Virus record (IMG/VR): IMGVR_UViG_3300045110_000325
Coordinates: 1-63,735 of that record
Origin: a virus
Lineage: Duplodnaviria > Caudoviricetes
Direction: 5' to 3' (one strand)
Length of the DNA stretch: 63,735 nucleotides
The position numbers and the translations under genes were made by a program. The notes beneath the pieces are model-generated. The model worked only from the letters and a program-made list of their open reading frames with translations, was not told the DNA's origin and did not search any database. Positions 15,242-43,557 of this stretch are shown piece after piece; within the stretch, counting starts at the first letter, position 1, and every line of letters starts with the position of its first letter.

Positions 15242-15775
15242 TCAGCTGATCGAGCAGCTGGCGCCCATATAGGTGTGCGACCCCGGCGCCCACCAGCCGG
15301 CGGTCACCGTGCCGATGTAGGTGTTGCTGGCCGCGCTGCGGAACTGGGCGTTCGTGTACGCGTGCGCGCCGAGGGGGAACGGGCCGACCTCGGGATGCGC
15401 CGCGTACCACAGGTACGCGAAGCCGCTGCCGGTCGCGCCCACCTGCACCGAGTACCACCCGGTGAGCCACTGCTGCTGCTGCGGCTCGCCGGTGCGCAGC
15501 TCGAAGCGGACTTCCACGTCCGGCCCGGTGGGCACGGAGACGGCTGAGACGTAGGGGTCCATCACTGTCGCGCCGAAGCAGTCGCGGGCGTCGAGGGTGG
15601 CCGTCTGCCCGCCGACAAGGCCGGCGCCGGCTTCCGACTGCCGCAGGTCGCCGGCTTGCGCGGGAGCCGCCCCTGCCGCCGTGAGGGCGAGGGTCGTCAG
15701 GGCTGCCAGCGCCAGGGCCGCCAGCTTCGGGCGGGGAGCCCGGCGGCGAGGTCGATGAAACAGGGACAGGGACAT
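15242..15775 (-). CDS. secreted protein with signal peptide
   Basis: Arg-rich N-region, hydrophobic core, APAQA cleavage site; aromatic beta-rich body with two Cys. Confidence 0.65.
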   Translation of the reverse strand: MSLSLFHRPRRRAPRPKLAALALAALTTLALTAAGAAPAQAGDLRQSEAGAGLVGGQTATLDARDCFGATVMDPYVSAVSVPTGPDVEVRFELRTGEPQQQQWLTGWYSVQVGATGSGFAYLWYAAHPEVGPFPLGAHAYTNAQFRSAASNTYIGTVTAGWWAPGSHTYMGASCSIS

Positions 15776-15922
15776 GGGTGGAAGGCCCTTCGCTAGATTG
15801 AGTTCGGGCAGGTTGGAAGGCCCGCCCAGTCCCTGCCGCTGTTGACCCAGCGGCAGGGACGCTTTGGCCTCGCGTCGCCCGGCTTTCCCGGGCACGTCGC
15901 ATTGCCCTCACCTCCCGTTGAC

Positions 15923-16747
15923 TCAAAGGGAAAACCTGAGTGGCCGATTCGGCGTTGACGCCGCCCGGAGAAGCGCCAGCAACTGGCGGCCGATGTGCTC
16001 GGTGTAGGCGGGTGGGATGGCCTGAGCCACCTCGTCTCGGGTCATCCAGTCGATGTCCATCGCCGCGCGCTTCTCATCGGCCGATCCTTGGTACGCGCCA
16101 CGGCGTGTTGCGCTGGGAGCCCAGCGCCCGTGGCCGTAAACGCCCAGCGAGTAGCCGACATGGGCGCAGGCGGTTCCGCTCAGCGCGGTGTTGGACTCGA
16201 ACAGCCGGTGCCGGCGCAACTGCCGCCACACGCCGTCAGCGCAACGCGCGCCCAGGCCCAACGACGACCCGCAGAACTGGATGGGGTCGACCAATGGAGC
16301 ACCGGGGACGTTCTCGATCACCCACGTCCCGCCCCATCCCGCCAGCAGGGTCCTGGTCCCGGAGATCAGGTCGGGATACTCGCGCGGGTTTGCTGTGCGG
16401 AGCGCCGTGAAGCGCTGGCAGGGCGGGCTGGCGTGGACCGCGTCAAAGCCGTTCAGGTCTGCCTTGAGCGCGTCCGCCTGGATGAACTCGAACGGGTAGC
16501 GCGGCTGCGGCTCGATGTCCACGCCGACGACGTCGAAGCCCGCGCGGTGGTAGCCCATGGCAGCCCCGCCCGCTCCGCAGAACAGGTCGAGTAGTTTCGG
16601 GCGCGTGGGGTGGTGCCAGCCGGGTGCCGGGGCGTCGCTCGGCGCGTTGTCGTTTGGGTCGGGCTCGTGAGCCGGCCCCGGCTGGGCATTGCCCGCCGCC
16701 CTCGCTGCGAGGGGGTAGAGGACGACGGGGGTCGGGGGAGCGGTCAT
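15923..16747 (-). CDS. C5 cytosine DNA methyltransferase
   Basis: LLDLFCGAGG, SPPCQ, ENV, R.R.F, AIPPAY. Confidence 0.9.
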   Translation of the reverse strand: MTAPPTPVVLYPLAARAAGNAQPGPAHEPDPNDNAPSDAPAPGWHHPTRPKLLDLFCGAGGAAMGYHRAGFDVVGVDIEPQPRYPFEFIQADALKADLNGFDAVHASPPCQRFTALRTANPREYPDLISGTRTLLAGWGGTWVIENVPGAPLVDPIQFCGSSLGLGARCADGVWRQLRRHRLFESNTALSGTACAHVGYSLGVYGHGRWAPSATRRGAYQGSADEKRAAMDIDWMTRDEVAQAIPPAYTEHIGRQLLALLRAASTPNRPLRFSL

Positions 16748-16968
16748 GAGGCGGCCTTGGGGACCCAGGTGTCGGCCTTGTCATCCCAGACGACGCAGGC
16801 CGGGCAGTAGTGCTGGCCGTCGATCTCCCGCCAGTCGCCTTCCTCGGCGTCGTCCCAGGCCGAGTCCTGCTCGCTCCAGCCGGCGTAGTCGGTCGTCGCC
16901 TGGGCGTTCGCCTTGCAGCCGGGACCGTCGCAGTCGACGGTCCACATGGTCACGGCGCGGTAGCTCAT
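16744..16968 (-). CDS. small zinc-binding protein
   Basis: CD..C ... HYCPAC. Confidence 0.6.
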   Translation of the reverse strand: MSYRAVTMWTVDCDGPGCKANAQATTDYAGWSEQDSAWDDAEEGDWREIDGQHYCPACVVWDDKADTWVPKAAS

Positions 16969-17519
16969 GGCCGCACCTGACCCTGGTCGAACGCGGCCTC
17001 GATCTGCCGCAGCCGGGCGCTAGGCACTAGCTCGGCGACGGTCGGGATGCGGACCAGGAACTCGCGCGCGGCGTCGGTCTCCAAGCCCTCCATCGCCAGC
17101 GCGCGGAGCAGGTCGGCCTCTTGCCTGTCCAGCGCGAGCATGGCCTGGCTGACCTGCTCCGCGATGCCGGCAAGCAGGGCGCGGTGGAGCTGATTGCGGT
17201 CCTCGGTCTTGCGGGACACCGGCCGGAGGCTCAACTGTCCGGCCCACCTGCCCCACTGCCCGCCTTCCACGTCCTCGCCGTGCGCCTTAAGCAGGTCGTC
17301 TATCTGGCGTTGCGCCTCGCGGGCCAACTCCTGGATGCGCCAGTTCAGGTCGTCGACCCTCTTGTCCTCGGCGCGGTAGCGGTCGACGAGGCGCCCCTCG
17401 GCCTCGGCCTCCAGCTCGAGGCGGCGCTGCTTCACCTCGGTCCGCAGTACCTTGAACTGCGCGCGGACGACGGACCGCAGCTCTCGGCGCTCGCCAGGCG
17501 GGATCGGCGCGGCGGTCAT
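16965..17519 (-). CDS. coiled-coil hypothetical protein
   Basis: Heptad-like, coupled overlaps. Confidence 0.65.
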   Translation of the reverse strand: MTAAPIPPGERRELRSVVRAQFKVLRTEVKQRRLELEAEAEGRLVDRYRAEDKRVDDLNWRIQELAREAQRQIDDLLKAHGEDVEGGQWGRWAGQLSLRPVSRKTEDRNQLHRALLAGIAEQVSQAMLALDRQEADLLRALAMEGLETDAAREFLVRIPTVAELVPSARLRQIEAAFDQGQVRP

Positions 17520-17939
17520 GGCCGGACCAGCCCGCGCAGGATGAGGCTGCCGGCGTAGCGGGCCTTCGCGTAGCGGAGCGGGCCGACCTCGACGTGGGTG
17601 TAGTCGTGGCCGTGGTGCTGCTCGGCGAGGGCGAGCGTCGTCCGGTCGCGGCCGATGTCAGGGCCGTGCCACGTCGCCAGGAGCCCGCAGTCGCGGCAGT
17701 GCAGCACCGAGAACGGCGGCCGGGCGGTCGGCTTGCCGTGCTTGCCCATGGCGCGTCGCCACGCCTGCCGGGCCGAGCGCGACCAGCCGTAGAGCGCGAA
17801 GGCGTAGAAGATTCCTCCCCAGAGGTGGAGCGACACCAGTGCGACAGCCAACGAGACCGCGACGATGAGGGCCGCTGCGGCGCAGACGCCGGCCGCGGTG
17901 AAGAAGGCCGTGCGCTTGGCGAACTCGCGGTCGTCCATC

Positions 17940-18260
17940 TCACGCTCCGAAGTTGTGTCGCGGCGGGTCGGCCTCGCGGATATCCACACCCGTCCCGCCT
18001 CCACACGGCCAGTCCACCCACACGTCGTCGTTCTCGCGTTCCTGGCGAGCTTTCGAACAGGGTCCGCAGACATCGCTGACGCGAGAGTCCTCGCAGGCCG
18101 GCACACCGTCTTCCCCGACGTAGAAGTGTGCTTCGCTCCACGCCTCCCACTCCGGCTCGCAGTCGTCTGGTTCGGGGTGGGCTACGCACTCCTCATATAC
18201 CGCGATCTTGTAATGCGCTGGAATCGCCAGTCGTTCGTCCATCACACCCGTCCCGCTCAT
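17940..18260 (-). CDS. acidic Cys-containing hypothetical protein
   Basis: ATGA overlap; C..C..DWPC. Confidence 0.5.
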   Translation of the reverse strand: MSGTGVMDERLAIPAHYKIAVYEECVAHPEPDDCEPEWEAWSEAHFYVGEDGVPACEDSRVSDVCGPCSKARQERENDDVWVDWPCGGGTGVDIREADPPRHNFGA

Positions 18261-18532
18261 GACGCCGCCTCGAACGCGAGGCGCGCCCAGGTCTGCACGT
18301 CGGCGTAGAGGGCTTTGCGCCGGCCGTGGAGGACCCGCGAGGGGATGCGGCCGGGGGTCACGTCGCCGGGCGGCGCGCCGTCCCCGGCGAGCATCAGCTC
18401 CCTGACGGCGACCTCCCCGAGGGCGAGCAGCGCCATCGCCGCCTTGATGTCGACGAGCAGCGGCGGGCTGGCCGGTGGGAGCGCCGAGGCCCCGTTAGGC
18501 GCGGCCGCCGAAAACTCGTTAGGCGTTGGCAT
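18257..18532 (-). CDS. excisionase-like HTH protein
   Basis: LLVDIKAAMALL.LG...V.EL..G..IPS...GRRK; early operon near int. Confidence 0.6.
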   Translation of the reverse strand: MPTPNEFSAAAPNGASALPPASPPLLVDIKAAMALLALGEVAVRELMLAGDGAPPGDVTPGRIPSRVLHGRRKALYADVQTWARLAFEAAS

Positions 18533-18703
18533 CGGTGACCACCACCTCCACCTGTGCTCCGTTCAGCCACGCAACACGCCCAGCCGCCTCATCGGAGCTG
18601 CCGTGGTCGCTCTCTGGCACCCAAGACCCGTCTGGCTTGTAGAAGCCCACCGTCCAAAGGCCAGGTTCCGACCGGACGTACACGTAAGAGCCGTTAGGCA
18701 CGG

Positions 18704-18979
18704 TCATGGCGCGGTCTCCTCGCATCGGCGCTCCCACGCGAGGTCGAGGACCTCTCGCACCTCGGCGCTCGCGCCCTCGGTAGTCCACGGGTGATCGGCG
18801 AGTCGCGTGATCAGCTCGTCGGCGAATGCGGCCGTGACCGCCTTGACGCCCTCGAAGTCCAGCGTCAGGACGGATCGGCGAGAGCGCGCGGTGGCGGCTT
18901 GGCAAATCCGCCGGGCGCTCTCACGGGTGGCGAAGAACTCGCCAGCGTCGGCGACTCGGTACACCGAAGGGTCGGTCAC
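18704..18979 (-). CDS. STAS-like (DUF4325-type) protein
   Basis: F.TRESAR ... LDFEGV...T.AFADEL. Confidence 0.7.
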   Translation of the reverse strand: MTDPSVYRVADAGEFFATRESARRICQAATARSRRSVLTLDFEGVKAVTAAFADELITRLADHPWTTEGASAEVREVLDLAWERRCEETAP

Positions 18980-19248
18980 GGCTCGTTCACGGGCGTCATG
19001 TCGTGGCCGCGCGCGAATTGCAGGCGGCTGACCGGGTAGGGGGTGCGCCGGTGGTCGATGGCGACCCACCCGCCCCGCTCCGTGGGATGGTCGCCCTCAG
19101 GTGTCCTGACTATGAGGACGCCCTCCTCGTCGAGCCACAGGCAGTCGGCGTCGCCGAGGTGCTCGGCCGCCCAGGCGCGGACCTCGGCGAGGTTCTCCCC
19201 GGTCCACGGGACGGCCTCCGTCGTTCCGACGCGCCGGTAGCGGGCCAT
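18976..19248 (-). CDS. conserved small phage protein, possible nucleotide-signal sponge
   Basis: YRR..EAV.WTG.N..EV..T.EG..G.W..YP..F. Confidence 0.55.
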   Translation of the reverse strand: MARYRRVGTTEAVPWTGENLAEVRAWAAEHLGDADCLWLDEEGVLIVRTPEGDHPTERGGWVAIDHRRTPYPVSRLQFARGHDMTPVNEP

Positions 19249-19484
19249 CAGGCCACGTCCGAGGCGGTGTCGGAGTAGTCCCAGATCGACTCGACTCGGA
19301 CGCCGAGCGCGGCGGCCAGGTTGATGCGGATGCGGTCGCCGGGGCTCGTCTCACCGCGCTCGATCCGGTAGAGGTATGAGTCCGTTATCCCGGCGGCTGC
19401 GGCGAGCTGGGTGCGGTTCATCTCGCGCTCTTCCCGGAGAGAGCGCACCTTCGCGCCCCAGGTCTTGTCGCGGTCACTAGGCAT
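19248..19484 (-). CDS. Cro-like XRE HTH regulator
   Basis: LREER.MNR.QLA.AAGIT.SYL.RIERG; first gene of the leftward early operon. Confidence 0.85.
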   Translation of the reverse strand: MPSDRDKTWGAKVRSLREEREMNRTQLAAAAGITDSYLYRIERGETSPGDRIRINLAAALGVRVESIWDYSDTASDVA

Positions 19485-19582
19485 GTTGTGACTCTCTCTC
19501 ATAGTCTGTGTGAGTGTCAAGCGTAACTTTGACCCGTGCTTGATTTGCATGCGCGAATGTGTGACGCTCATTCTCTGTGAGC
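19485..19582. promoter_or_regulatory. divergent cro/repressor promoter-operator region
   Basis: AT-rich; TTGACA on minus strand (19515-19520); CTCA-N9-TGAG and CTCA-N7-TGAG inverted repeats. Confidence 0.65.
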
Positions 19583-20014
19583 ATGCGGGACGAGGAGCAC
19601 GCGCGCAGGCTGGCCGCCGGCCGCTGGGTGCGTGACGCGCGCGTCCGCCGGGGTTTTCAGCATCAGACAGAGCTGGCGCAGGCGCTGAACGTCCACCCGT
19701 CGCTCGTCTCGGGCATCGAGCGCGGGCACGCTCCCGTGTCCGTCGAGGTCGCGCAGCGGCTGGCCGGCGTCCTCCACATGCCGCTGCTGGAGGTGTGGCG
19801 AAGCGTCGGCCTGCCGTTGCCGCCCGGCATCCCGGACGACCAGCTGGGGGACTACCCCCTGGCGCGGCACAACCTCAAGGACCACGAGTACGACGCGCTG
19901 ATCGCAGTGCTGCGGGCGCTGCGCGGCGAGGACGCCGCGGCCATCCTCGCCGGCCAGGACGCCGCCGACGAGCCCGAGCCGTCCGACCCCCGCCGCCGCG
20001 GCGTGGCCGGATGA
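19583..20014 (+). CDS. immunity repressor (XRE HTH)
   Basis: QTELAQALNVHPSLVSGIERG; divergent from cro. Confidence 0.8.
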   Translation: MRDEEHARRLAAGRWVRDARVRRGFQHQTELAQALNVHPSLVSGIERGHAPVSVEVAQRLAGVLHMPLLEVWRSVGLPLPPGIPDDQLGDYPLARHNLKDHEYDALIAVLRALRGEDAAAILAGQDAADEPEPSDPRRRGVAG

Positions 20015-20121: not shown

Positions 20122-20526
20122 GTGTCAATGAGGTCGATGCCGACCAATCCGGCGGCACTCCGCAGGTCGGGCTGGGCGTGCGCCGCGAGCGGGCTGGCGG
20201 TGATGGCGGGCCCTGACGTGGCTCACATCCCTGATCACTGGGCCCGGCTCGGCTTGGTGCTGACGTACGCCGGCCTGTTGGCGTGGGCGACCGCGACGAT
20301 CCTGGCGCATCAGCGCAGGCTGGAGGAGCGGACTCTGGCCAGGGACGCGGAGGCGACCGCCACGCAAGTCCGGACCGGTTTCCAGCTCGGCTGCGCGTCG
20401 ATCCGCGCCGGGGCTGCTGCTCCGGCCGTGTCAGCCGGGTTGTCCGCTGACCGGCGGCGTCCCCGGCTGCGCCTCGTCAGCGACAGGGGAGTTGACGGGG
20501 CCGCCGGGGAGCAGGACTCGGCCTAG
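20122..20526 (+). CDS. two-TM membrane protein in the immunity cassette
   Basis: GAGGAGG RBS, two hydrophobic segments. Confidence 0.55.
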   Translation: MSMRSMPTNPAALRRSGWACAASGLAVMAGPDVAHIPDHWARLGLVLTYAGLLAWATATILAHQRRLEERTLARDAEATATQVRTGFQLGCASIRAGAAAPAVSAGLSADRRRPRLRLVSDRGVDGAAGEQDSA

Positions 20527-21846
20527 CCGGTCTGGCTCCGCCGGCTTCGCTGGCAGCACCTGCTCGCCCCACGCCTCGAGCGCCTGGCGCTGCGCCGAGT
20601 CGGGCGGGGTGTCGTAGCGGTCAAGCATCGCCCTCTGCGTCCAGCCGGCGATCGCCATCACGGTCCGGTCGGAGACGCCGAGGGCGCGCAGGCCGGTGGC
20701 CATGGTGTGCCGCAGCTCGTGGACGCGGCGGCGCGGCAGCCCGGCCTCGTCGAGGATCGCCTGCCACTCCGCCCAGTCGGCCTTCGCCTCGATCGGTCCG
20801 CCGGCCGGCGTGGTGAACACGAGCCCGCCGAACTCCGCGCCGGGGCCCTGCTTCCCGTTGGAGTCCTGCGGCGGCTGCCGGTCCCGCAGGCCGGCGAGGA
20901 GCACGGCCAGCGCCGGCAGCAGGGGGACGGTCTTGGACCTGTGCGTCTTCACGTCGCCGAGGACCAGCCCGCCCGTGCGGACGCCGGGCGGTGGCCGGCG
21001 CTGGGGGCAGTTCCCGCCGCGTTTGCGCCCGCACGACGGGCCCCGCCCGGGCTGGTCAGCGCCAGGACAGCCGTGCCGCCAGGGCAGCCGCTCCAGGTCG
21101 TGCCGAATCGTCACCGACGCGGCCAGGGGGTCGGCGATGTCCAGGTCGTCCCAGCACAGCCCGAGCGCCTCTCCCTGCCGCAGGCCGAGGAGCATGCCGA
21201 GCAGCCACCGCACGCCGTTGCGCCGGCCAGCCGCTGCGGCGGCGACTTGCCGGGCCTCCGCGGCGGTCAGCGGCTTGACCTCGCGGCGGCGCACCGTCGG
21301 AGGGTCGACGAGGTCGCATGGGTTGCGCACGTTGTGCTTGCGGCCGGCGAGGACGTAGAGCCGCGACAGGATGCGGTGCACGTGCAGCACCGTCTGCGGG
21401 GACAGCGGCCCGCCGTCCTTGCCGCCGTGGTCGAGGAGGTCGGCGTAGAGCCGCTCGACCCGCTGGGGTGTGACCCGGTCCAGCCGCAGCCCGCCGATGT
21501 GGGGCGCGATGTACCGCTCGACCTTCCCCCGGGCGCGCCACACCGTGCCGGGGGCGCGCTGCGAGGCGGGCATGACCACGTCGAGCCAGTGCCTGGCCCA
21601 CGCCTCCACCGTCGGGGGGCGGTCGGACGCGACCGCGCCGGAGTCCTCCATCTCGCGGCGGGCCTTCGCGAGCTTCGCCCGGACCTCGGCCTGGGTCCTG
21701 CCGTAGCGGGTGACCCGCCGCCGCCGGCCGGTGCCGTCGTCCACCGAGAACTGCCCCATGTAGGACCCGCTGGCCTTGTGCCAGCAGACCGTCCCCTCGC
21801 CGCGGGCCCGGCGCGGGCGGTCGCGTCGAGGGGGGTTGCGCGGCAC
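20431..21846 (-). CDS. int: tyrosine integrase
   Basis: GEGTV arm domain; LRQGEALGL.W, HELRH, GW..MLDRY; Cys-rich insertion. Confidence 0.95.
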   Translation of the reverse strand: MPRNPPRRDRPRRARGEGTVCWHKASGSYMGQFSVDDGTGRRRRVTRYGRTQAEVRAKLAKARREMEDSGAVASDRPPTVEAWARHWLDVVMPASQRAPGTVWRARGKVERYIAPHIGGLRLDRVTPQRVERLYADLLDHGGKDGGPLSPQTVLHVHRILSRLYVLAGRKHNVRNPCDLVDPPTVRRREVKPLTAAEARQVAAAAAGRRNGVRWLLGMLLGLRQGEALGLCWDDLDIADPLAASVTIRHDLERLPWRHGCPGADQPGRGPSCGRKRGGNCPQRRPPPGVRTGGLVLGDVKTHRSKTVPLLPALAVLLAGLRDRQPPQDSNGKQGPGAEFGGLVFTTPAGGPIEAKADWAEWQAILDEAGLPRRRVHELRHTMATGLRALGVSDRTVMAIAGWTQRAMLDRYDTPPDSAQRQALEAWGEQVLPAKPAEPDRLGRVLLPGGPVNSPVADEAQPGTPPVSGQPG

Positions 21847-21865: not shown

Positions 21866-22122
21866 TACTGCCAGACTACTGCCTACAGGATGTCCCGTGC
21901 TGTCGAGCTATGTAGACCTGCGTCGTGCGACACACGGTCTCGCCTGGGCGGTTGTCCCGCAGTGTCCCGCCATGTAGAGTGGCACCCGTACTGGTCGGCG
22001 GTTTCCTAAACCGTGTGTCGGAGGTTCGAATCCTCTCGGGGGCACAACCTCGCTGACCTGCCAGTTCGGCACTCGGCGGCGGGAACCTCGAACAGCCAGG
22101 TACTGCCAAGTCTACTGCCAGA
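21866..22122. other. attP: attP: tRNA-Arg(CCT) 3'-half core flanked by TACTGCC arm-type repeats
   Basis: Core ~21998-22045 (GCGGT-TTCCTAA-ACCGT, GGAGG-TTCGAAT-CCTCT, CGGGGGCA); TACTGCC at 21866, 21877, 22101, 22113. Confidence 0.88.
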
Positions 22123-22140: not shown

Positions 22141-22719
22141 ATGGCTGACATGACCGATCAAGTGCGGCGCAGCAGCCAGGTGTCCATCGACGGCGGCCCG
22201 CTGCTGGAGTGCGAACTGGCGACTGAGCGCGAGGTCGAATACGTCCGCTCACTCCACGCTGTCAAGCCGGACACGCAATGGGCGTTCGTCGACAGCCAAG
22301 GACACCAGCACCAATTCGCCGAAGGCCGTGCTCTGCCGACTCTCACCCCGCAATCTGAGCACGTTCCCTGCGATGGGTCCTGTGGCGGCGTCTGCGAGGG
22401 CGAGGGCTACCACATCACCGTTTACACCTGCTCGCTGTGCGGCGATGTCGTCGAGCCGAGCTGGGTGCCGGACCACGATGCGATGACCGTCGGCACGCCG
22501 GTGGTCATCGCCGAGAGTCAGACCCTGACGGTGCTGCAAGACCCAGGCTTGCGCGATTACGCCTATGGCTCTGAGTTGCCGGTTCGAGTCCAGTTCGGCG
22601 ACCGGTGGATGACCGGTGTGGGGTGGATAAACAGCCTGCAAGTGACCACATGGCCGGTTCCTCGATTCGCGCTGACGATGCCCTGTCGACTTCAGCCGGA
22701 AGAGGAGCGCGCGTCATGA
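22141..22719 (+). CDS. hypothetical Cys/His protein
   Basis: D.QGH.H, C..C motifs. Confidence 0.55.
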   Translation: MADMTDQVRRSSQVSIDGGPLLECELATEREVEYVRSLHAVKPDTQWAFVDSQGHQHQFAEGRALPTLTPQSEHVPCDGSCGGVCEGEGYHITVYTCSLCGDVVEPSWVPDHDAMTVGTPVVIAESQTLTVLQDPGLRDYAYGSELPVRVQFGDRWMTGVGWINSLQVTTWPVPRFALTMPCRLQPEEERAS

Positions 22720-22964
22720 CCGACCTGCCTGAGACCTCCCTCATTCGCTCCACGGAGGCTGTGGAACTTCTGCGTCGAGCTGCCGCCGATGCCCGCGAGC
22801 AGCACGGCCCGGCGCACGCTCGCCACGAGTTCTGGTGTCGGTTGTCGAACTGGTGGGACAAGACGGCCTGGATGATTGAGATGGACGCCGACTTGCTCCA
22901 TCGCATCGGATGCGACGAGGCCGTCGCCGCTGCTCGCGCCTACCTTGGCAGGCCGGCGTCATGA
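22716..22964 (+). CDS. hypothetical protein
   Basis: ATGA overlap; A.A.ARAYL C-terminus. Confidence 0.55.
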   Translation: MTDLPETSLIRSTEAVELLRRAAADAREQHGPAHARHEFWCRLSNWWDKTAWMIEMDADLLHRIGCDEAVAAARAYLGRPAS

Positions 22965-23239
22965 GCCTCAACCTCTACTGGCAGCCCGTCGTCCCGCAGG
23001 AGCGGCATTGCCTCGGCGGGCACCCCGTCAAAGGCGTCCTGGTCCGCGCGTTCGGCGACGGCGACGGCTCGCGGATGACCGAGTTCGAGTTGACCGCGGC
23101 GAACTTCGGCGAGTTGCGGATGCTCCAGCGAGTCCACGACAGCCCGTCCGAGAATCACCAGGAGATCAGGGACGGGATCGAGAAAGTGATCGAGGCGGTC
23201 GAGCGTTATGGCGCTGTCCAATGCTTCACCGCCGATTAG
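22961..23239 (+). CDS. hypothetical protein
   Basis: ATGA overlap. Confidence 0.55.
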   Translation: MSLNLYWQPVVPQERHCLGGHPVKGVLVRAFGDGDGSRMTEFELTAANFGELRMLQRVHDSPSENHQEIRDGIEKVIEAVERYGAVQCFTAD

Positions 23240-23362: not shown

Positions 23363-25492
23363 GTGGAGAAACCTACCGACGTAGCGCAGCGCACGTCACC
23401 GCCCGGCCGGCTGATCCAGCTCCGCCGGAAGGCGGAGCCTGAGGTCGCAGAGGCGGCCGAGCTGCCCGCTGTCGCGGACGAGGTCGTCGACGGCGAGCTG
23501 GTCGACGACGGCGAGGGCCGGGACCTGGAGCCGGCGCTCCCTCCGCAGTTCACGGCTCTCCCCGCGCGGCCGATCATCGCGGACTGGCTCCGCTCCAGCG
23601 GGCAGCGCCGGATGGCCGCGAAGTGGGCGCTGCGGTTCGCCGGCCACGTCGTCGCGTTCCACATCGCGCGCCTGCCGTTGTACGCGGGGAAGCTGGCCCT
23701 TTACGCCCCGCGGGGCCTTGCCCGGTCGTCTCTGGCCGCGGCGTGCTGGCTCGCGGACCTGGAGGCCCGGCCGCTGCGGAGGGCGGCCGTGGACAAGGTG
23801 GAGATCGGCGAGTACATCAAGCTCGCGCGGCTGCGGGACGACCGGATACGCGGGCGGCTGATCTGGGCCGGGGTGCTGGCGGTCCCCGTCCTCGTCGTCC
23901 TCGCCGTCGGCTGGTTCTTCTACCGCCCGTACTTCACCGTCGGGCTGGTTGTCGCCGTCGCCATGCTCGGCTGGCTTGGCCGGCGCAGAGACAAGCCGCT
24001 GATCCCCCACGCCGTGATCCCCACGGAGGCGAAGCCGCTGACCGCGGACACGGTGACCGCGGCCCTCGGGTCGCTGGGGATCTCGAAGATAGACCAGGCC
24101 GTCGCCAAGGGGCCGGGGTTGGCGTTCCCCGCGCCGATCTGCCGCGACGGCCCCGGGTGGCGCGCCGACGTGGACCTCCCCCTGGGCGTCACCCCCGGGG
24201 AGGTGATGGAGCGGCGGGAGAAGCTGGCGTCGGGGCTGCGCCGGCCGCTGGGCTGCGTGTGGCCGGGGGCTGATCCGGAGATTCACGAGGGGCGGCTGGT
24301 GCTGTGGGTCGGCGACCAGGACATGTCCAAGATGCGCCAGCCGCCGTGGCCGTTGGCGAAGTCGGGGACGACGGACCTGTTCAAGGAGTTCCCGTTCGGC
24401 ACGGACCAGCGCGGCCGGGACGTGTCGCTGACGTTGATGTTCGCGTCGATGGTGATCGGCTCGGTGCCGCGGATCGGGAAGACGTTCGCGCTGCGGCTGA
24501 TCCTCCTCGCCGCGGCGCTGGACGTGCGCGCGGAGATCCACGCCTTCGACCTGAAGGGCATGGGCGATTTCTCCGCGCTGGAGCCGGTGCTGCACCGCTA
24601 TGGCCGGGGCTGCCGCGACGAGGTGGTCGAGCGGATACGCGCGGACCTGCTGGACGTGCGGGCCGAGCTGACCCGCCGCACCGACGTGGTTGACGCCCTG
24701 CCGCGGGAGATCGCGCCCGAGTCGAAGATCACCCCCGAGTTGGCTTCGCGGCGGCAGCTGCGGCTCCACCCGATCGTGATCGCCATCGACGAGTGCCAAC
24801 TCGCCTTCGACCACCCCGTGTTCGGCGACGAGATCGAGGCGTTGTGCGACGACTTGAACCGCCGCGGCCCGGCGGCCGGGATCATGTTGATCCTCGCCAC
24901 GCAGCGCCCCGACGCGAAGTCGATCCCGTCAGGGGTGAAGGCGAACTCGGTGCTGCGGTTCTGCCTCAAGGTGACCGGCCATTTGGAGAACGACATGGTG
25001 CTCGGGACCGGCGCGTACAAGGCCGGGGTGCGGGCGACGATCTTCTCCCGCCGGGACCTGGGCATCGGGTACCTGGTGGGCGAGGGGGCCGACCCGACGA
25101 TCACCCGCACGTACTACGTCGACAACCCGGGCGCGGAGCGGATCGCGGCGCGGGCGCGGCGGCTGCGGGAGGCCGCGGGCACGCTGTCGGGGCACGCGCT
25201 CGGGGAGGAGCCGGAGACGGGCCCGGTCTGCACGGTCCTCGACCACGTGCGGATGGTGCTCGCGCCGGGGGAGGAGAAGGTTTGGTCGGAGACGCTGCTG
25301 GAGCGGATGCGGGAGCGATGGCCGGAGCGGTACGACGGCTGGTCGACGACGCAGCTGGCACTGGCGCTCAAGCCGTACGACATCGCCACCAAGCAGATCC
25401 CGCGCCGCTTCGGCGAGCGGGTCGTGAACAACCGCGGGGTCGAGACGGCGGACGTTCTGGCCGCCTCGGCGTCGCCGCTCGAAAGGCGCTGA
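23363..25492 (+). CDS. traB: FtsK/SpoIIIE-family DNA translocase, TraB-like
   Basis: N-terminal TM pair; Walker A GSVPRIGKT, Walker B IAIDECQ, LATQRP; C-terminal winged-helix-like tail. Confidence 0.85.
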   Translation: MEKPTDVAQRTSPPGRLIQLRRKAEPEVAEAAELPAVADEVVDGELVDDGEGRDLEPALPPQFTALPARPIIADWLRSSGQRRMAAKWALRFAGHVVAFHIARLPLYAGKLALYAPRGLARSSLAAACWLADLEARPLRRAAVDKVEIGEYIKLARLRDDRIRGRLIWAGVLAVPVLVVLAVGWFFYRPYFTVGLVVAVAMLGWLGRRRDKPLIPHAVIPTEAKPLTADTVTAALGSLGISKIDQAVAKGPGLAFPAPICRDGPGWRADVDLPLGVTPGEVMERREKLASGLRRPLGCVWPGADPEIHEGRLVLWVGDQDMSKMRQPPWPLAKSGTTDLFKEFPFGTDQRGRDVSLTLMFASMVIGSVPRIGKTFALRLILLAAALDVRAEIHAFDLKGMGDFSALEPVLHRYGRGCRDEVVERIRADLLDVRAELTRRTDVVDALPREIAPESKITPELASRRQLRLHPIVIAIDECQLAFDHPVFGDEIEALCDDLNRRGPAAGIMLILATQRPDAKSIPSGVKANSVLRFCLKVTGHLENDMVLGTGAYKAGVRATIFSRRDLGIGYLVGEGADPTITRTYYVDNPGAERIAARARRLREAAGTLSGHALGEEPETGPVCTVLDHVRMVLAPGEEKVWSETLLERMRERWPERYDGWSTTQLALALKPYDIATKQIPRRFGERVVNNRGVETADVLAASASPLERR

Positions 25493-25581
25493 CACGCTTA
25501 TCCGCAGGTCAGGAGTCTGTGGATTGATTACTTGGCCGCTTACAGTAAGCGACCTCGCCGATTACAGAAGGGACCGAAGCC

Positions 25582-25752
25582 ATGGGATTGTTCAGCGACC
25601 GGCGGGAGTACAAGGCCGCGCAAGAGGCGCAGGCGAAGCTGCAGCGGAGCCAGAAGCGGCGCAAGATCCGCGAGGAGACGCCGTCGTACCTGAAGGCGAA
25701 CAAGAGGACGAACGCCGCCGTCAACAAGCTGCCGTGGTGGGCACGGATCTAG
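25582..25752 (+). CDS. small basic protein (56 aa, not in ORF track)
   Basis: MGLFSDRREYKAAQ...ETPSYLKAN...LPWWARI; AAGGGA RBS. Confidence 0.65.
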   Translation: MGLFSDRREYKAAQEAQAKLQRSQKRRKIREETPSYLKANKRTNAAVNKLPWWARI

Positions 25753-25766
25753 GGAGGACAGAAGTC

Positions 25767-25919
25767 ATGGGCATCTTCGACGGGGACCCGAGGTACCAGG
25801 AGCTGAAGCGCATCCGCGAGAAGGAGGGCTACAAGGGTTGGTTAGACCAGGACAACAAGAAGGTGTCCGACAAGGACGTGAAGTCGGGCGCGTGGAAGGG
25901 CAAAGGCAAGAAGAAGTGA
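25767..25919 (+). CDS. small basic protein
   Basis: GGAGGA RBS; MGIFDGDPRY...GWLDQD. Confidence 0.65.
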   Translation: MGIFDGDPRYQELKRIREKEGYKGWLDQDNKKVSDKDVKSGAWKGKGKKK

Positions 25920-26170
25920 TCATCGCCGCCGCCGCGTCGTCGGGTGTGTCGCCTTGGCATTGGCTGTGGATAGCCGCCGCCATGGCCGCCCTGTACCTCG
26001 TCGGGTGCTGGGTGTACCCGTACGCGCCGTGCCGTGTGTGCATGGGCTCGGGGCAGCGCCGCTCCGGCGGGGTGCTCGGCGAGGGCGGGTCGTGGCGTCG
26101 GTGCTGGCGCTGCGGCGGACGCGGGGAGCGGATCAGGCCCGGCGCGAGACTCCTCGGGAGGGGCAAGTGA
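25916..26170 (+). CDS. TM + DnaJ-type CxxCxGxG zinc finger protein
   Basis: PYAPCRVCMGSG ... CWRCGGRGER.R. Confidence 0.7.
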   Translation: MIIAAAASSGVSPWHWLWIAAAMAALYLVGCWVYPYAPCRVCMGSGQRRSGGVLGEGGSWRRCWRCGGRGERIRPGARLLGRGK

Positions 26171-26436
26171 TCGGCAGAATCGTGCACACGCCGCCAGGCG
26201 GGCACTCGTGCATGCCTGGATGGGAGACCATCCGGACAACCCCCGGATCGCCGGCGCCGTACTCCGCCCACTCCGTCAACACCGGCTGCTTCGCCCCCGA
26301 GGGCAGCGTGTGGGAATGCGAGTGCGCCCGGACGTTCGTCGCGTTCTACGACCGCCGGCATGGCTGCCTGGCCGCGTTCTGGCGGCCGGAGCGGCGCCGC
26401 GAGCGCAAGCGCCGGCTCAAGGCGGCTGCCTCGTGA
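26167..26436 (+). CDS. hypothetical protein
   Basis: GS.WECEC; GTGA overlaps. Confidence 0.5.
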   Translation: MIGRIVHTPPGGHSCMPGWETIRTTPGSPAPYSAHSVNTGCFAPEGSVWECECARTFVAFYDRRHGCLAAFWRPERRRERKRRLKAAAS

Positions 26437-27113
26437 GTGGGCGAGCCTGGGCGTACACCGGCGTCGTCCTCGGCGCGGCGGTGTCGGTCGCGGCGAACGT
26501 CGCCCACTCCTACGTCCCCCCCGAGGACGCGCCGCCTGCCTGGTCTCCGCACGCCGGGGCGGTCGTCGGCGCGGTGTTCTGGCCCGTGGCGCTGCTCGTG
26601 TCGCTGGAGATCCTCGCCCGGGTGGAGTGGCCGTCCGGGTGGCGGTGGACAGCTGTCCGCTACCTCGGACTGATCCCGGTCGGCGTGGTGGCAGCCGTGG
26701 TCAGCTACCGGCACATGTCCGGACTGCTGGAGTGGTACGGCGAGGAGAGCATCACGTGCGACCTCGGGCCGTTGGCGGTGGACGGCCTGATGGTGATGTC
26801 CGCCGGGGCGCTGCTGGCCACGGCTCGGACAGCCCGGGCAGTCGAGGCGGCGGCCGAGGACAGCCCGACCGAGCCGCTGGCGACGGAGCCCGCCGAGACC
26901 GTGAAGCCGCAGGTCGTGCTTGACCTCGTGGCGACCCTGGACCGCCTCGGCGTGCCACCTGGCACCGGCCGGGAGAAGTCCCGACAGGAGCTCGCGAAGG
27001 TCGGCCGGCGGGCGTCGACGGGCGACCTGTCCGAGGCTGTCCGGCTGCGGAAGACAGGTGACCGTGCCAAGGTCAACGGCGTGGACCGAGAACTGGAGAG
27101 GGCAGGGACATGA
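26433..27113 (+). CDS. DUF2637/SpdA-like multi-TM protein
   Basis: S..ANV.HS, WP..L, SY.H..L, P.AVDG motifs. Confidence 0.75.
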   Translation: MSGRAWAYTGVVLGAAVSVAANVAHSYVPPEDAPPAWSPHAGAVVGAVFWPVALLVSLEILARVEWPSGWRWTAVRYLGLIPVGVVAAVVSYRHMSGLLEWYGEESITCDLGPLAVDGLMVMSAGALLATARTARAVEAAAEDSPTEPLATEPAETVKPQVVLDLVATLDRLGVPPGTGREKSRQELAKVGRRASTGDLSEAVRLRKTGDRAKVNGVDRELERAGT

Positions 27114-27244: not shown

Positions 27245-27718
27245 GTGGAGCGTGTGACCGTGGACATCGTGGAGTTAATCCGGCGCAACCTGGCGGCTGA
27301 CCGGGAGGCGGCTGAGGCGGCGACGCCGGGGCCGTGGCGGCACAACCCCGACAAGCATTGGCGGAAGCCAGGCACTTCGTGGTTCGAGGAGGCAGTCTTT
27401 GCCGGACCAGCCGGGGATGATGCGACCTGCGTCGCGGGCACGGGAGAAACCGAGGACCCGCAGAGCCACGCCGACGCCGCCCACATCGCCCGCCAGGACC
27501 CGGCCGCGACGCTGCGCCGCGTCGAGGCCCTGGAGCGGATCGTGGAACTGCACGCGGTTGAGCACAAGTGCCCAACATTGTTGGACGACGGCGTCGCGGG
27601 GGACCTGTTCACCTTTCAGGTGGGCGGTCGTTTCCCGTGCCAGACCTTGCGCTTGATCGCCTCGACCTGGCCCAACGCCCCCGGCTACGACCCGGCGTGG
27701 ACGGTGCCGCCGCTGTGA
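27245..27718 (+). CDS. DUF6221-like protein (start approximate)
   Basis: AATPGPW, A.HIARQDPA..L..V.A, TLR.IA..W...PGYDPAW. Confidence 0.7.
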   Translation: MERVTVDIVELIRRNLAADREAAEAATPGPWRHNPDKHWRKPGTSWFEEAVFAGPAGDDATCVAGTGETEDPQSHADAAHIARQDPAATLRRVEALERIVELHAVEHKCPTLLDDGVAGDLFTFQVGGRFPCQTLRLIASTWPNAPGYDPAWTVPPL

Positions 27719-34345: not shown

Positions 34346-34864
34346 TCAGCTTCCCAACAGCCGGGTCATGATCCCGACGATCTCCTCGCCGTAAGTCGGC
34401 GACGGCGCCCACAACCCACCCAACTGCTCAACGGTCGGCGCGGAGCCGAACCGCGGCCCGCCCGGCCAGACGTAGACCGCGCGGGGGTCGGGGGAGTCGT
34501 CCGGCGAGTCGTAGCCGGCGGGGACGCGGCCGGCGTAGAGGGACAGGTGGTCGGCGTGGGCGCGCGCGCCGGTCGCCATGTCGGGGAACAACGCGTGGTC
34601 GGCTGTCGTGTCGCCGGTCGGGTTGCGCACCTTGAGGCCGCACGGGTTGTTCATCGACGGGGTGACCGCGCCGCCGAAGCGCCCCCAGCCGGTTTCCTTC
34701 GCGCATTGCGCGACCAGGACCACCGGGTCGACGCCGACGGCCAGGCCGGCAGCGGCGAGGTGCGGCAGCGCGCTGAAGAACCACGGCGAGGCGGTCGCTG
34801 GTATGTCCTCGTAGTGGATGACGTGGGCCGGCCCCGCAAGGAGGATCGAAACCGGCCGAGTCAG
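34346..34864 (-). CDS. glucosaminidase (GH73-like) domain, reached by -1 frameshift from the amidase
   Basis: G.DP.V..AQ..KETGWG.FGG...NNPCGLK, F.D...G..AH, L.G.WAPS..YG; no canonical start before the conserved core. Confidence 0.75.
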   Translation of the reverse strand: MTRPVSILLAGPAHVIHYEDIPATASPWFFSALPHLAAAGLAVGVDPVVLVAQCAKETGWGRFGGAVTPSMNNPCGLKVRNPTGDTTADHALFPDMATGARAHADHLSLYAGRVPAGYDSPDDSPDPRAVYVWPGGPRFGSAPTVEQLGGLWAPSPTYGEEIVGIMTRLLGS

Positions 34865-34870
34865 TTTCCC
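34806..34870 (-). other. -1 ribosomal frameshift signal (G_GGA_AAC, 6-nt spacer, pseudoknot)
   Basis: Heptamer 34864-34870; S1 34857-34847/34836-34826; S2 TCCTC/GAGGA. Confidence 0.75.
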
Positions 34871-43538: not shown

Positions 43539-43557
43539 CGTTGGCTACCCTCCTGAC

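What the first reader, a model, noticed from the sequence alone, without database searches (positions are those of the whole stretch)
23363..27113. Tailed phage carrying an AICE/plasmid-type TraB translocase and spread-like module
Seen: an intact 709-aa FtsK-family ATPase (TM segments, Walker A/B, wHTH-like tail), followed by small basic ORFs, a TM zinc-finger protein and a DUF2637/SpdA-like membrane protein, close to attP. Known: in filamentous actinomycetes TraB alone transfers double-stranded DNA between hyphae, and Spd proteins spread it within the mycelium. Inference: the excised prophage circle may move by conjugation as well as by virions, making it a phage-AICE hybrid that could bypass receptors and entry defences.
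Basis: partly seen in the sequence, partly recalled or inferred. Interest (0 to 1): 0.8.

Follow-up and report, generated by a model that had tools for sequence, protein, structure and literature searches.

The report
Tailed phage carrying conjugation DNA pump
A temperate tailed phage of soil actinomycetes carries an intact copy of the membrane DNA pump that actinomycete plasmids use for mating, and dozens of other phage genomes do too, which hints that some phages may also spread by cell contact.

Summary
The window is a non-integrated temperate siphovirus genome with TerL, portal, protease, capsid, tape measure, lysins, RecT, a repressor-like gene, a tyrosine integrase and an intact tRNA-Arg(CCU) attP. 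Beside attP lies an intact 709-aa FtsK-fold ATPase with a membrane hairpin, P-loop, Walker B and C-terminal winged helix. Five small, partly stop/start-coupled genes follow, including a TM zinc-ribbon protein and a four-helix DUF2637-family membrane protein (226 aa, not 359). In trees the ATPase nests among AICE-context TraBs of Micromonosporaceae, apart from chromosomal FtsK and EccC. A second assembler links it on one 33-kb contig to lysis and tail genes. The case is not unique: 42 of 50 IMG/VR records with a relative also encode TerL or portal, all six terminal-repeat genomes among them, and the closed 41.9-kb 'plasmid' pPaSha2 is a phage with the same layout. AICE relatives and a phage-only TraB clade carry clade-specific short-repeat arrays just after traB, where pSVH1 has clt. 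This window has none, and it lacks Kor/Pif regulators and an AICE replication gene. The phage-AICE hybrid gene content is shown. Conjugative or intramycelial transfer is plausible but untested, and weaker for this phage than for its relatives.

The parts
523..19571 (-). Phage early/replication-recombination block (RecT 7612-8589, helicase 5808-7178, DNA methyltransferases 4825-5820 and 15923-16747)
   Evidence: GC3 gene map; PHROGs phrog_4171 6.6e-51, phrog_62 2.6e-44, phrog_67 4.1e-32, phrog_363 7.6e-40
19577..20014 (+). XRE/cI-like repressor candidate
   Evidence: PHROGs transcription-regulator families, best 9.2e-06
20431..21846 (-). Tyrosine integrase (471 aa). It is the only recombinase found in the window with the seeds used
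   Evidence: Pfam PF00589 7.8e-12; tblastn with six recombinase seeds finds only this one
21866..22122 (+). attP. The core 21999-22046 matches the 3' two-thirds of tRNA-Arg(CCU). The 10-mer TACTGCCAGA occurs on both sides (21866, 22113) as candidate arm-type sites
   Evidence: Rfam tRNA 36.9 bits with truncated D-arm; ARAGORN finds no tRNA; 92-94% match to tRNA-Arg(cct) genes of Asanoa and Micromonospora; repeats; assembly graph branches exactly at 21999-22028
22141..22719 (+). 192-aa acidic Cys-rich protein, first gene after attP; function unknown
   Evidence: ORF; no Pfam, PHROG, NCBIfam or PADLOC hit; composition
22910..23239 (+). Small ORF directly upstream of traB (109 aa as listed; an in-frame ATG at 22961 would give 92 aa, unassessed); function unknown
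   Evidence: GC3 0.86; no family hits; start candidates
23363..25492 (+). TraB-type FtsK-fold dsDNA translocase, 709 aa: disordered N-terminus, membrane hairpin about 165-207, motor about 340-535, winged helix 625-703
25534..25554 (.). Imperfect palindrome GGCCGCTTAC-A-GTAAGCGACC, 42 nt after the traB stop. It is the only repeat-like feature where relatives have clt-like arrays
   Evidence: the repeat finder; sequence
25582..25752 (+). 56-aa basic ORF (15 K+R, 5 D+E)
   Evidence: frame-specific GC3 0.92-0.95; composition
25767..25919 (+). 50-aa Lys-rich basic ORF; ATG preceded by GGGAGG
25916..26170 (+). 84-aa TM + zinc-ribbon (CxxC...CxxC) protein. GTG overlaps the preceding stop. Homologues sit directly after traB in pPaSha2, in an AICE and in 4 viral contigs
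26167..26436 (+). 89-aa Cys-rich, Arg-rich ORF. GTG overlaps the preceding stop
   Evidence: frame-specific GC3 0.87-0.95; start codon and GGGAGG
26433..27113 (+). 226-aa DUF2637-family membrane protein: four long helices plus a helical tail. GTG overlaps the preceding stop
27245..27718 (+). DUF6221 / phrog_6326 protein. The same family follows traB in DTR-complete phage G042
   Evidence: Pfam 3.4e-18; phrog_6326 1e-13; tblastn hits after traB in L053, L026, L045; phrog_6326 6.7e-28 in G042
34346..35721 (-). Lysis enzymes: glucosaminidase-domain protein 34346-34723 and endolysin 34861-35721
   Evidence: Pfam PF01832 6.7e-09; phrog_1493 5.9e-08
39462..63668 (-). Virion module: tape measure 39462-43538, major head 57843-59279, protease 59424-60326, portal 60265-61638, TerL 61723-63285
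   Evidence: PHROGs phrog_7025 8e-48, phrog_2263 3.8e-47, phrog_7053 1.3e-25, phrog_12 4.1e-57, phrog_9 1.9e-43

Best explanation
Shown: this is the excised (attP-form) genome of a temperate siphovirus of a Micromonosporaceae-like mycelial actinomycete. In the accessory slot between attP and the lysis genes it carries the transfer part of an actinomycete integrative conjugative element. That part is a TraB-type FtsK-fold dsDNA translocase plus a short operon of small basic, zinc-ribbon and four-helix membrane proteins. The element's replication and Kor/Pif regulatory genes are absent.

Inferred: TraB assembles as a membrane ring, as pSVH1 TraB does, and pumps double-stranded phage DNA across hyphal walls or septa, helped by the co-encoded membrane proteins. 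This would give the phage genome a contact-dependent route, either conjugation between hyphae or spreading within a mycelium, in addition to virions.

For this phage the cis site that TraB would recognise is not identified, so self-transfer is less certain here than in relatives that carry repeat arrays.
For: Homology:
- Best matches are AICE and plasmid TraBs: 46 plasmid records, top an 18.4-kb excised AICE at 52% identity over 90% of the query; pSVH1 TraB E 1e-17.
- The 80 best genomic relatives have 0/80 phage markers within 10 kb, 39/80 AICE markers and 36/80 a GntR hit only.

Trees:
- Window + L004 (95) lie inside a 10-row set (98) with Micromonosporaceae AICE-context TraBs.
- The TraB clade is separate (95) from chromosomal FtsK, EccC and other FtsK-domain proteins of two Micromonosporaceae genomes.

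Fold: FtsK motor E 3e-12, then the conjugation coupling protein TcpA; winged helix 625-703.

No decay: 135/141 columns invariant in 19 relatives are kept, within the 92.5-100% range of the others.

Linkage: a 33,010-bp contig from another assembler runs from 21999 through traB to about 55 kb. There is one recombinase and one att copy. The att-core node has depth 15.6 against 13.1-13.3 on the flanks, and the same 10-mer lies on both arms, which indicates the attP form.

Recurrence:
- 60 IMG/VR loci encode a relative. Of the 50 records searched, 39 have TerL and 3 more have a portal, including 6/6 DTR genomes.
- pPaSha2, a closed 41.9-kb circle from an isolate, has the same int-DUF2637-TraB-lysis layout.

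Cis sites in relatives:
- pSVH1 control: 5 copies of GACCCGGA right after traB.
- TAGCGGC is 94.5-fold enriched in the 230 bp at the traB end in 80 AICE-context loci.
- CGAAACC is 286-fold enriched there in 43/43 loci of a phage-only clade, with 38 distinct sequences.

Gene organisation: three successive overlapping stop/start codons in the downstream small genes. Thoma et al. 2015 describe this for spd operons (PMC4447253, passages).
Against: - No clt-like array in this window. The 230 bp at the traB end holds at most 2 copies of any 7-mer (rank 0.989 among tiles), and neither TAGCGGC nor CGAAACC. Whole-window scans show nothing convincing outside coding repeats.
- Three of the six lost invariant residues lie in the winged helix (D628H, L649M, R690N).
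- With the seeds used, no GntR kil-kor regulator, NUDIX/Pif or AICE Rep was found.
- No SpdB2 homologue. No published function for DUF2637 was found (search).
- Pfam PF01580 is not reached, and NCBIfam plasmid_TraB scores 24.6 bits against a cut-off of 800.
- The deep relation to pSVH1/pSG5 TraB is unresolved.
- No expression or transfer data exist.
Confidence: 0.4

Rival explanations
1. Intact but idle passenger. The phage picked up an AICE transfer segment by recombination. The genes are still open, but without a cognate clt the phage genome is not a TraB substrate. At most TraB acts on other DNA, such as host chromosome or resident elements with matching sites.
For: No clt-like array in the window, while 79/80 AICE relatives have at least 3 copies of a 7-mer after traB and the sister phage L004 has 5. 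No Kor/Pif or Rep genes were found with the seeds used. The window sits on a long terminal branch (0.75).
Against: 135/141 invariant positions are kept. The best relative is only about 55-62% identical, so this is not a recent capture. The partner zinc-ribbon gene is co-retained. TraB is retained in many independent phage lineages.
Confidence: 0.2
2. Vertical maintenance rather than horizontal transfer. The pump clears or delivers episomal or replicating phage DNA across closing septa and sporulation septa, as FtsK-type proteins do for chromosomes, so that compartments and spores inherit the phage.
For: FtsK motor fold. The hosts are mycelial and spore-forming. pPaSha2 is recorded as a free 41.9-kb circle in an isolate. 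In G042 traB lies between replication and packaging genes. Authors of Streptomyces phage papers link phage FtsK-like genes to host development (PMC13587820 and bioRxiv 2024.02.16.580700, passages).
Against: The protein groups with conjugative-element TraBs, not chromosomal FtsK. The FtsK-like genes of isolated phages are only 23-27% identical over the motor. This phage has an integrase and attP, so it need not persist as an episome.
Confidence: 0.15
3. Competition or exclusion device. The prophage-expressed TraB and membrane proteins interfere with incoming AICEs, plasmids or phage DNA, or act as a defence module.
For: It sits in the attP-proximal accessory slot where temperate phages often keep lysogeny-expressed genes (general knowledge). 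There are weak PADLOC hits: mad8 2e-07 and SspH 1.1e-05.
Against: The PADLOC hits cover only the generic P-loop core and are far weaker than the TraB matches. The clade-specific repeat arrays next to traB in relatives point to cis-acting DNA recognition, not exclusion.
Confidence: 0.12
4. Artefact: an assembly chimera, or two elements (an AICE and a prophage) lying in tandem and called as one virus.
For: The window is a metagenome-derived linear record with CheckV 77%. The assembly graph branches at the att core. Four of 60 viral loci show only AICE-type markers within 10 kb.
Against: One 33-kb contig from a different assembler joins traB to the lysis and tail genes at even depth (13.1-13.3). 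There is a single att copy and a single recombinase. Both att arms carry the same 10-mer. The layout is reproduced in closed pPaSha2 and in DTR genomes. Caveat: the run may be the source sample, so this is a second assembly, not second data.
Confidence: 0.03

Closest known systems
TraB of actinomycete integrative conjugative elements (AICEs), e.g. the excised 18.4-kb element NZ_CP107792.1 of Streptomyces sp. NBC_00562
   Same: 52% identity over 90% of the protein. Same length class and same tree clade. The same small TM zinc-ribbon gene lies directly downstream (E 1.5e-05). A DUF2637 gene is in the neighbourhood.
   Different: The AICE has GntR, NUDIX, prim-pol, YfjI and no virion genes, and TAGCGGC-type repeats after traB. 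The window has virion, lysis and phage early genes, no AICE Rep or Kor/Pif genes found, and no repeat array.
TraB of Streptomyces plasmids pSVH1 and pSG5 (the biochemically studied dsDNA conjugation motor)
   Same: Homologous motor (29.5% identity over residues 258-588, E 1e-17). The membrane segment, FtsK-like motor and C-terminal DNA-recognition domain match the architecture described in PMC4447253 (passages).
   Different: This is a different, deeply separated clade. Pfam PF01580 detects pSVH1 and pSG5 TraB (about 1e-11) but not the window protein. pSVH1 has 5 copies of GACCCGGA after traB, SpdB2 and a GntR regulator. The window has none of these.
pPaSha2 (CP052773.1), filed as a 41.9-kb circular plasmid of Pseudonocardia alni
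   Same: It is a complete tailed-phage gene set with the order HTH regulator, integrase, small ORFs, DUF2637, FtsK/TraB (47% identity), zinc-ribbon ORF, holin. It too has no repeat array after traB (3 copies, rank 0.41).
   Different: Different genus and a smaller genome. DUF2637 lies upstream of traB and overlaps it. No tRNA-like attP was detected. No paper mentions it (search).
SpdB2 homologues on temperate actinophages phiC31 and VWB
   Same: [quoted passage not shown]
   Different: Those phages are cited for SpdB2, not for the TraB motor. The window has the motor but no SpdB2 homologue.
FtsK/SpoIIIE-like genes of isolated phages (e.g. Streptomyces phage Gilgamesh; phrog_1358)
   Same: Same superfamily (phrog_1358 5.9e-25).
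   Different: The window TraB has no tblastn hit in 50,697 phage records at 1e-5. Relatives' TraBs reach only 23-27% identity over the motor. Authors interpret those genes as development-related.
'Conjugative prophage' Phi1207.3 and phage-ICE tandems of streptococci
   Same: A prophage that moves by cell contact, or together with a conjugative element (PMC4260502 and PMC13651849; search listing and start of abstracts only).
   Different: These are Firmicutes elements. The window uses the single-protein dsDNA system of mycelial actinomycetes, embedded in the phage genome and not in tandem.

Membership tests
TraB (FtsK-like conjugative dsDNA translocase of Streptomyces plasmids/AICEs) | FtsK/SpoIIIE-type motor with P-loop and Walker B | tested here: met
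   Foldseek FtsK motor 6t8o E 3e-12. PDB profile hit FtsK 3.6e-06. GKT and DE are invariant in 20/20. However, Pfam PF01580 gives no hit at 0.01 and the P-loop has one extra residue.
TraB (FtsK-like conjugative dsDNA translocase of Streptomyces plasmids/AICEs) | N-terminal membrane anchoring | tested here: met
   Hydrophobic stretch 162-189 (Kyte-Doolittle 2.43) and AF2 helices 148-185 and 188-209. Prediction only.
TraB (FtsK-like conjugative dsDNA translocase of Streptomyces plasmids/AICEs) | C-terminal winged-helix domain that reads clt | tested here: inconclusive
   The AF2 topology H-E-H-H-E-E-H at 625-703 has pLDDT about 90. The domain was not searched alone against structures and binding was not tested. 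Three conserved residues are changed.
TraB (FtsK-like conjugative dsDNA translocase of Streptomyces plasmids/AICEs) | Cognate clt: array of short direct repeats near traB (PMC4447253) | tested here: not met
   The window has at most 2 copies of any 7-mer at the traB end (rank 0.989). The pSVH1 control is positive. 79/80 AICE-context relatives have at least 3 copies.
TraB (FtsK-like conjugative dsDNA translocase of Streptomyces plasmids/AICEs) | Groups with conjugative-element Tra proteins rather than chromosomal FtsK or EccC | tested here: met
   Trees. NCBIfam's best hit is plasmid_TraB, but at 24.6 bits against a cut-off of 800, so it is not that equivalog.
TraB (FtsK-like conjugative dsDNA translocase of Streptomyces plasmids/AICEs) | GntR-type TraR/KorA kil-kor partner | tested here: not met
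   Two-round tblastn with GntR seeds finds nothing in the window. No GntR appears among the annotated neighbours.
TraB (FtsK-like conjugative dsDNA translocase of Streptomyces plasmids/AICEs) | traB-dependent transfer of double-stranded DNA | not testable with these tools
   Needs mating assays.
AICE (element level) | Int + Rep (RepSA, RepAM or Prim-Pol) + Tra within one small element (definition in PMC3218068, passages) | tested here: not met
   Int and Tra are present. No prim-pol, YfjI or pSVH1-type Rep was found with the seeds used. RepSA and RepAM were not searched directly. The element is 63.7 kb with virion genes.
Spd spread proteins (SpdB2) | Sequence homology to SpdB2 of pSVH1/pSG5 | tested here: not met
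   blastp and tblastn find no hit in the window or in any viral locus.
Spd spread proteins (SpdB2) | Integral membrane protein with four TM helices that binds DNA (PMC4447253) | tested here: inconclusive
   The 226-aa protein models as four long helices. 11/23 family members match HTH_23, but no HTH was detected in the window's copy.
DUF2637 (PF10935) | Score above Pfam's gathering threshold | tested here: inconclusive
   The window protein scores 19.4 bits against 22.8. 21/23 homologues (46-56% identical) match at E up to 0.01, best 4.1e-07.
Temperate tailed phage (siphovirus type) | TerL, portal, protease, major head protein, tape measure, lysin, integrase, attP, repressor | tested here: met

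The most novel reading that the evidence does not exclude
A widespread and so far undescribed class of temperate actinomycete phages are two-route elements. They package into virions, and they also pump their double-stranded genome through a TraB pore between hyphae or across septa, using their own clt-like repeat arrays (CGAAACC type in the phage-only clade). Because some also share the int / prim-pol / TraB backbone of AICEs, AICEs and these phages would be two states of one evolutionary continuum.
Probability: 0.3. Interest if true: 0.9.

Novelty: new variant of a known kind. Interest (0 to 1): 0.7.

Why it matters
If TraB works in these phages, a tailed phage could enter new hyphae without a receptor, as double-stranded DNA delivered by a donor. 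That would change how host range, entry-level defences and lysogen spread are understood in mycelial, antibiotic-producing actinomycetes. It would also blur the line between prophages and AICEs in genome annotation: pPaSha2 is filed as a plasmid, and IMG/VR holds at least 42 such records.

The question is directly testable, because a cultured isolate carries a closed example. The clade-specific repeat arrays found here give concrete candidate binding sites for the winged helix.

Tried and rejected
- Megablast of the window halves against GenBank phages found nothing, or only a 348-bp patch shared with Arthrobacter phages.
- A single-sequence scan of viral contigs found nothing. The profile scan then worked.
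- Complex prediction on TraB + DUF2637 protein gave no verdict (score 0.00). It counts neither for nor against binding.
- Promoter/terminator scan of 21800-28100 found 0 promoter-like sites and 1 terminator-like site against 2.2 expected, so it was uninformative.
- Rfam on L004, pPaSha2 and part of G042 found no tRNA-like attP.
- The PLSDB Nonomuraea record was too large to search. FtsK/EccC references were taken from two other genomes instead.
- PADLOC hits (mad8, SspH) were judged to be generic P-loop similarity.
- TAGCGGC-like half-sites near the window's traB stop (1-mismatch 7-mers at 25404, 25474, 25535, 25654) were not counted as an array, because they are common GC-rich words.
- Vogelmann 2011 (PMC3117642) is not held. 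Its content is cited only through passages in PMC4447253 and PMC3218068.
- The notes of earlier sessions were closed.
- Searches for a published phage-borne TraB or AICE module returned nothing relevant. Supplementary tables of the AICE surveys (PMC3218068, PMC9513070) could not be seen and might list such elements.

Full report
WHAT THE WINDOW IS. The window is a 63,735-bp IMG/VR virus record, linear, with a CheckV completeness estimate of 77% and about 70% G+C. A GC3-filtered ORF map and family searches give a standard temperate siphovirus.
- Minus strand, 39.5-63.7 kb: tape measure, major head protein, prohead protease, portal and TerL (PHROGs E 8e-48 to 1.3e-25).
- 34.3-35.7 kb: two cell-wall hydrolases.
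- 0.5-19.6 kb: early genes including RecT, a helicase and two DNA methyltransferases.
- An XRE-type regulator at 19577-20014 and a tyrosine integrase at 20431-21846 (Pfam 7.8e-12).
- No close relative exists among 50,697 GenBank phage records.

attP AND THE PHYSICAL STATE OF THE GENOME. ARAGORN finds no tRNA. Rfam finds a tRNA-like element at 21982-22044 (36.9 bits, gathering score 29) with an intact anticodon arm (CCU), T-arm and 3' acceptor strand but a truncated D-arm. From 21999 to about 22046 it is 92-94% identical to tRNA-Arg(cct) genes of two Asanoa genomes and one Micromonospora genome. The differences are three changes confined to the two strands of the T-stem. The core occurs once in the window. 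The 10-mer TACTGCCAGA lies on both sides of it, at 21866 and 22113, as expected for the arm-type sites of an intact attP.

Contigs made by a different assembler from the one public run that holds this DNA break only at 21999-22028. One 6,985-bp contig ends there, and one 33,010-bp contig starts there and runs through the whole TraB module to about 55 kb. The 38-bp node has depth 15.6 against 13.1-13.3 on both flanks. One core copy per genome plus a minor second context fits these depths. Two copies per genome (attL + attR) would give about 26. The run may be the sample the window came from, so this is an independent assembly, not independent data.

I conclude that the record is an excised or virion-form phage genome, that traB is physically linked to the lysis and tail genes, and that the integrase side and the TraB side are the two arms of one attP.

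THE OBSERVATION. ORF 23363-25492 is open (709 aa, GC3 0.95). Pfam gives no family at E 0.01. PHROGs gives phrog_1358 'FtsK/SpoIIIE-like protein', 5.9e-25. NCBIfam's best hit is 'plasmid transfer protein TraB', but at 24.6 bits against a cut-off of 800.

The AlphaFold2 model (20-row alignment, mean pLDDT 68.9) shows a disordered N-terminus, long helices at 79-209, an alpha/beta core and a confident C-terminal helix-strand-helix-helix-hairpin domain at 625-703. Foldseek's top hits are FtsK motor domains (E 3e-12), then the conjugation coupling protein TcpA, then EssC/EccC. The P-loop is GSVPRIGKT, one residue longer than the classical pattern. Its G, P and GKT, and the DE of Walker B (IVIAIDE), are invariant in 20/20 homologues.

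Downstream, frame-specific GC3 and start-codon inspection resolve five genes:
- a 56-aa basic ORF (25582-25752);
- a 50-aa basic ORF (25767-25919);
- an 84-aa TM + double-CxxC protein (25916-26170);
- an 89-aa Cys/Arg-rich ORF (26167-26436);
- a 226-aa membrane protein (26433-27113).

The last three starts each overlap the preceding stop codon.

The 226-aa protein has 1,054 homologues, mostly from Micromonosporaceae. Of 23 aligned members, 21 match DUF2637 and 11 match HTH_23, while the window's own copy is just under Pfam's threshold. It models as four long helices plus a helical tail.

WHICH FtsK-FAMILY PROTEIN IS IT? tblastn finds 46 plasmid records, 40 of them Streptomyces.
- The best (52% identity over 90%) is an 18.4-kb circle with GntR, NUDIX, XRE, DUF2637, a zinc-binding protein, FtsK, prim-pol, YfjI, HTH and integrase. 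That is an excised AICE.
- pSVH1 and pSG5 TraB match at about 29% over the motor.
- A profile scan of one genome per species found 548 relatives. For the best 80 (47-57% identity), the 10-kb flanks hold phage structural or lysis markers in 0/80, AICE markers (prim-pol, YfjI, NUDIX) in 39/80, only a GntR hit in 36/80 and none in 5/80.
- A FastTree tree of 144 rows places window + L004 together (95) inside a 10-row set (98) with Micromonosporaceae AICE-context proteins.
- An IQ-TREE tree of 37 rows added chromosomal FtsK, EccC domains and other FtsK-domain proteins from an Asanoa and a Micromonospora genome. It keeps the AICE/phage TraB clade on one side of a branch (95), apart from all of these. 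The deep relation to pSVH1/pSG5 TraB is unresolved, and several reference rows are long or partial.
- Leaving each sequence out in turn, the window keeps 135/141 columns that are invariant in the other 19, inside the range of the others (92.5-100%).

IS IT A ONE-OFF? No.
- A profile scan of IMG/VR returned 60 loci with a relative at 36-52% identity.
- I searched the whole records behind 50 of them, leaving out the 10 shortest. Of these, 39/50 have a TerL (phrog_9), including 6/6 records with direct terminal repeats and 14/16 records at least 90% complete. Three of the remaining 11 have a portal, giving 42/50.
- The second-best 'plasmid' hit, pPaSha2 of Pseudonocardia alni, is a closed 41,938-bp circle from an isolate. 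It is annotated with capsid, protease, portal, terminase, Bet, an HTH regulator, integrase, DUF2637, FtsK (47% identity) and holin, which is the window's layout. No paper mentions it.
- G001, which holds the window's sister TraB, has a portal, a tyrosine integrase about 4.4 kb from traB on the other strand, and a resolvase between them.
- G042 is 36,848 bp with a 123-bp terminal overlap. It reads integrase, prim-pol/primase, TraB (PF01580 1.3e-07), DUF6221, HNH, TerS, TerL, portal, capsid.
- In the tree, 43 viral rows form a clade of their own (support 100), and 25 of them have phage structural genes within 10 kb.
- Other viral rows, including the window and pPaSha2, are scattered among AICE-context rows. 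This suggests several exchanges between AICEs and phages.
- Conserved companions of traB are the zinc-ribbon ORF, found directly downstream in pPaSha2 (1e-06), the AICE (1.5e-05) and four viral loci, and DUF6221/phrog_6326.
- Among isolated phages in GenBank this clade is absent. The window TraB has no hit at 1e-5. The G042 and pPaSha2 proteins hit only remote 'FtsK-like DNA translocase' genes at 23-27% identity.

THE cis SITE. According to Thoma et al. 2015 (PMC4447253, passages), TraB binds clt, which contains direct 8-bp repeats read by the TraB C-terminus. As a control, a blind k-mer cluster search on pSVH1 recovers 5 copies of GACCCGGA in 8158-8256, immediately after traB, against a null maximum of 2-3. 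I applied the search to the 230 bp from 30 bp before to 200 bp after the traB stop in every locus.
- AICE-context genomic loci: 79/80 have at least 3 copies of some 7-mer and 51/80 have at least 4, dominated by the core TAGCGGC. That core has 228 hits in 18.4 kb of such tiles against 221 in 1,685 kb elsewhere (94.5-fold), and 54/80 loci have at least 2 copies.
- Phage-only clade: a different core, CGAAACC, with 148 hits in 9.9 kb against 38 in 726 kb (286-fold). All 43/43 loci have at least 2 copies, across 38 distinct tile sequences.
- Specificity: TAGCGGC does not occur at all in the phage-clade tiles, and CGAAACC is near background in the AICE-context tiles (6 hits, 2.4-fold, 1/80 loci with at least 2 copies).
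- The window's sister L004 has 5 copies of CCGCTAG.
- The window has at most 2 copies of any 7-mer (rank 0.989 of tiles) and neither core. It has only an imperfect palindrome at 25534-25554.
- Whole-window scans show no convincing array outside coding repeats.
- pPaSha2 and five other viral loci are similarly bare.

Related sequences share arrays by descent, so locus counts overstate independent events. The positional enrichment and the clade specificity are the informative parts.

WHAT IT PROBABLY DOES. Shown: an AICE-lineage TraB and conserved small membrane partners are embedded in a bona fide temperate phage genome. They are intact and conserved, and this is recurrent across phage lineages, many of which also keep a clt-like array.

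Inferred: the pump moves phage dsDNA across hyphal envelopes or septa. The analogy is with pSVH1, where only traB deletion dramatically reduced transfer and the spd genes are needed for intramycelial spreading. The spd genes are small, diverse and often have overlapping stop/start codons (PMC4447253). [quoted passage not shown] The idea therefore has a printed precedent for Spd proteins, but I found none for the motor.

For this window the missing array, the three changed residues in the winged helix and the absence of Kor/Pif/Rep genes with the seeds used keep the passenger, vertical-segregation and exclusion readings alive. A phage-AICE tandem is unlikely: there is one recombinase and one att copy.

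WHAT IS KNOWN. 'FtsK/SpoIIIE-like' genes are noted in lytic Streptomyces phages and linked by the authors to host development (PMC13587820 and bioRxiv 2024.02.16.580700, passages). [quoted passage not shown] 'Conjugative prophage' and phage-ICE tandems are described in streptococci (search listing and abstracts only). Seven searches found no report of a TraB/AICE transfer module inside tailed-phage genomes. Supplements were closed and subscription journals are mostly not held, so this is not proof of absence.

VERDICT. I rate it a new variant of a known kind, with interest 0.7.

Noticed in passing
L016-L063 (43 IMG/VR loci; e.g. L053 11923-12150 = G042): A TraB clade made up only of viral contigs (support 100). 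Its members carry arrays of CGAAACC/GGTTTCG immediately after traB, 286-fold enriched and present in 43/43 loci. This is a candidate phage clt with its own recognition word.
   Followed up: partly
L067-L146 (80 genomic loci), L002 10090-10240, L004 4893-4982: TAGCGGC-type repeats are 94.5-fold concentrated in the 230 bp at the 3' end of traB in AICE-context loci. This is a candidate recognition sequence for this AICE TraB clade. I found no description of it.
   Followed up: partly
L065 (CP052773.1, pPaSha2): A record filed as a 41.9-kb circular plasmid of Pseudonocardia alni is annotated with a complete tailed-phage gene set. It is a phage genome or phage-plasmid in a cultured isolate.
   Followed up: partly
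L150/L151 (G042) 12386-14619: The DTR-complete 36.8-kb phage has a prim-pol plus primase/polymerase pair, an integrase and TraB. This is the same backbone type as Prim-Pol AICEs, with virion genes added.
   Followed up: partly
window 14313-14634: A 12-bp tandem repeat with 26.8 copies (consensus CGAGCTGGCCCC on the + strand) encodes (G/D)QL(G/R/W)-type tetrapeptide repeats inside the minus-strand early ORF 13663-15156.
   Followed up: partly
window 21999-22046 vs L152-L154: The attP copy of the tRNA-Arg 3' part differs from the Asanoa and Micromonospora genes at three positions confined to the two strands of the T-stem (GGAGG...CCTCT against GCAGG...CCTGC). After integration the rebuilt tRNA would carry the phage's T-stem.
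   Followed up: no
window 813-1388 and 54456-55502: An HslV-family peptidase-like gene lies in the early block (phrog_1040, 1.8e-21). A gene matching 'nucleotide-sugar epimerase' (phrog_540, 2.1e-34) lies in the virion block.
   Followed up: no
window 30917-31264: This is the only nucleotide-level similarity to isolated phages: about 73% identity over 348 bp to hypothetical genes at the right ends of Arthrobacter phages (BillyTP and others). It overlaps the DUF3307 ORF 30690-31283.
   Followed up: no
L064 (NZ_LT559118.1): PLSDB holds an 11.85-Mb Nonomuraea gerenzanensis replicon labelled 'plasmid I'. Its size is that of a chromosome. It carries a TraB relative at 39% identity.
   Followed up: no
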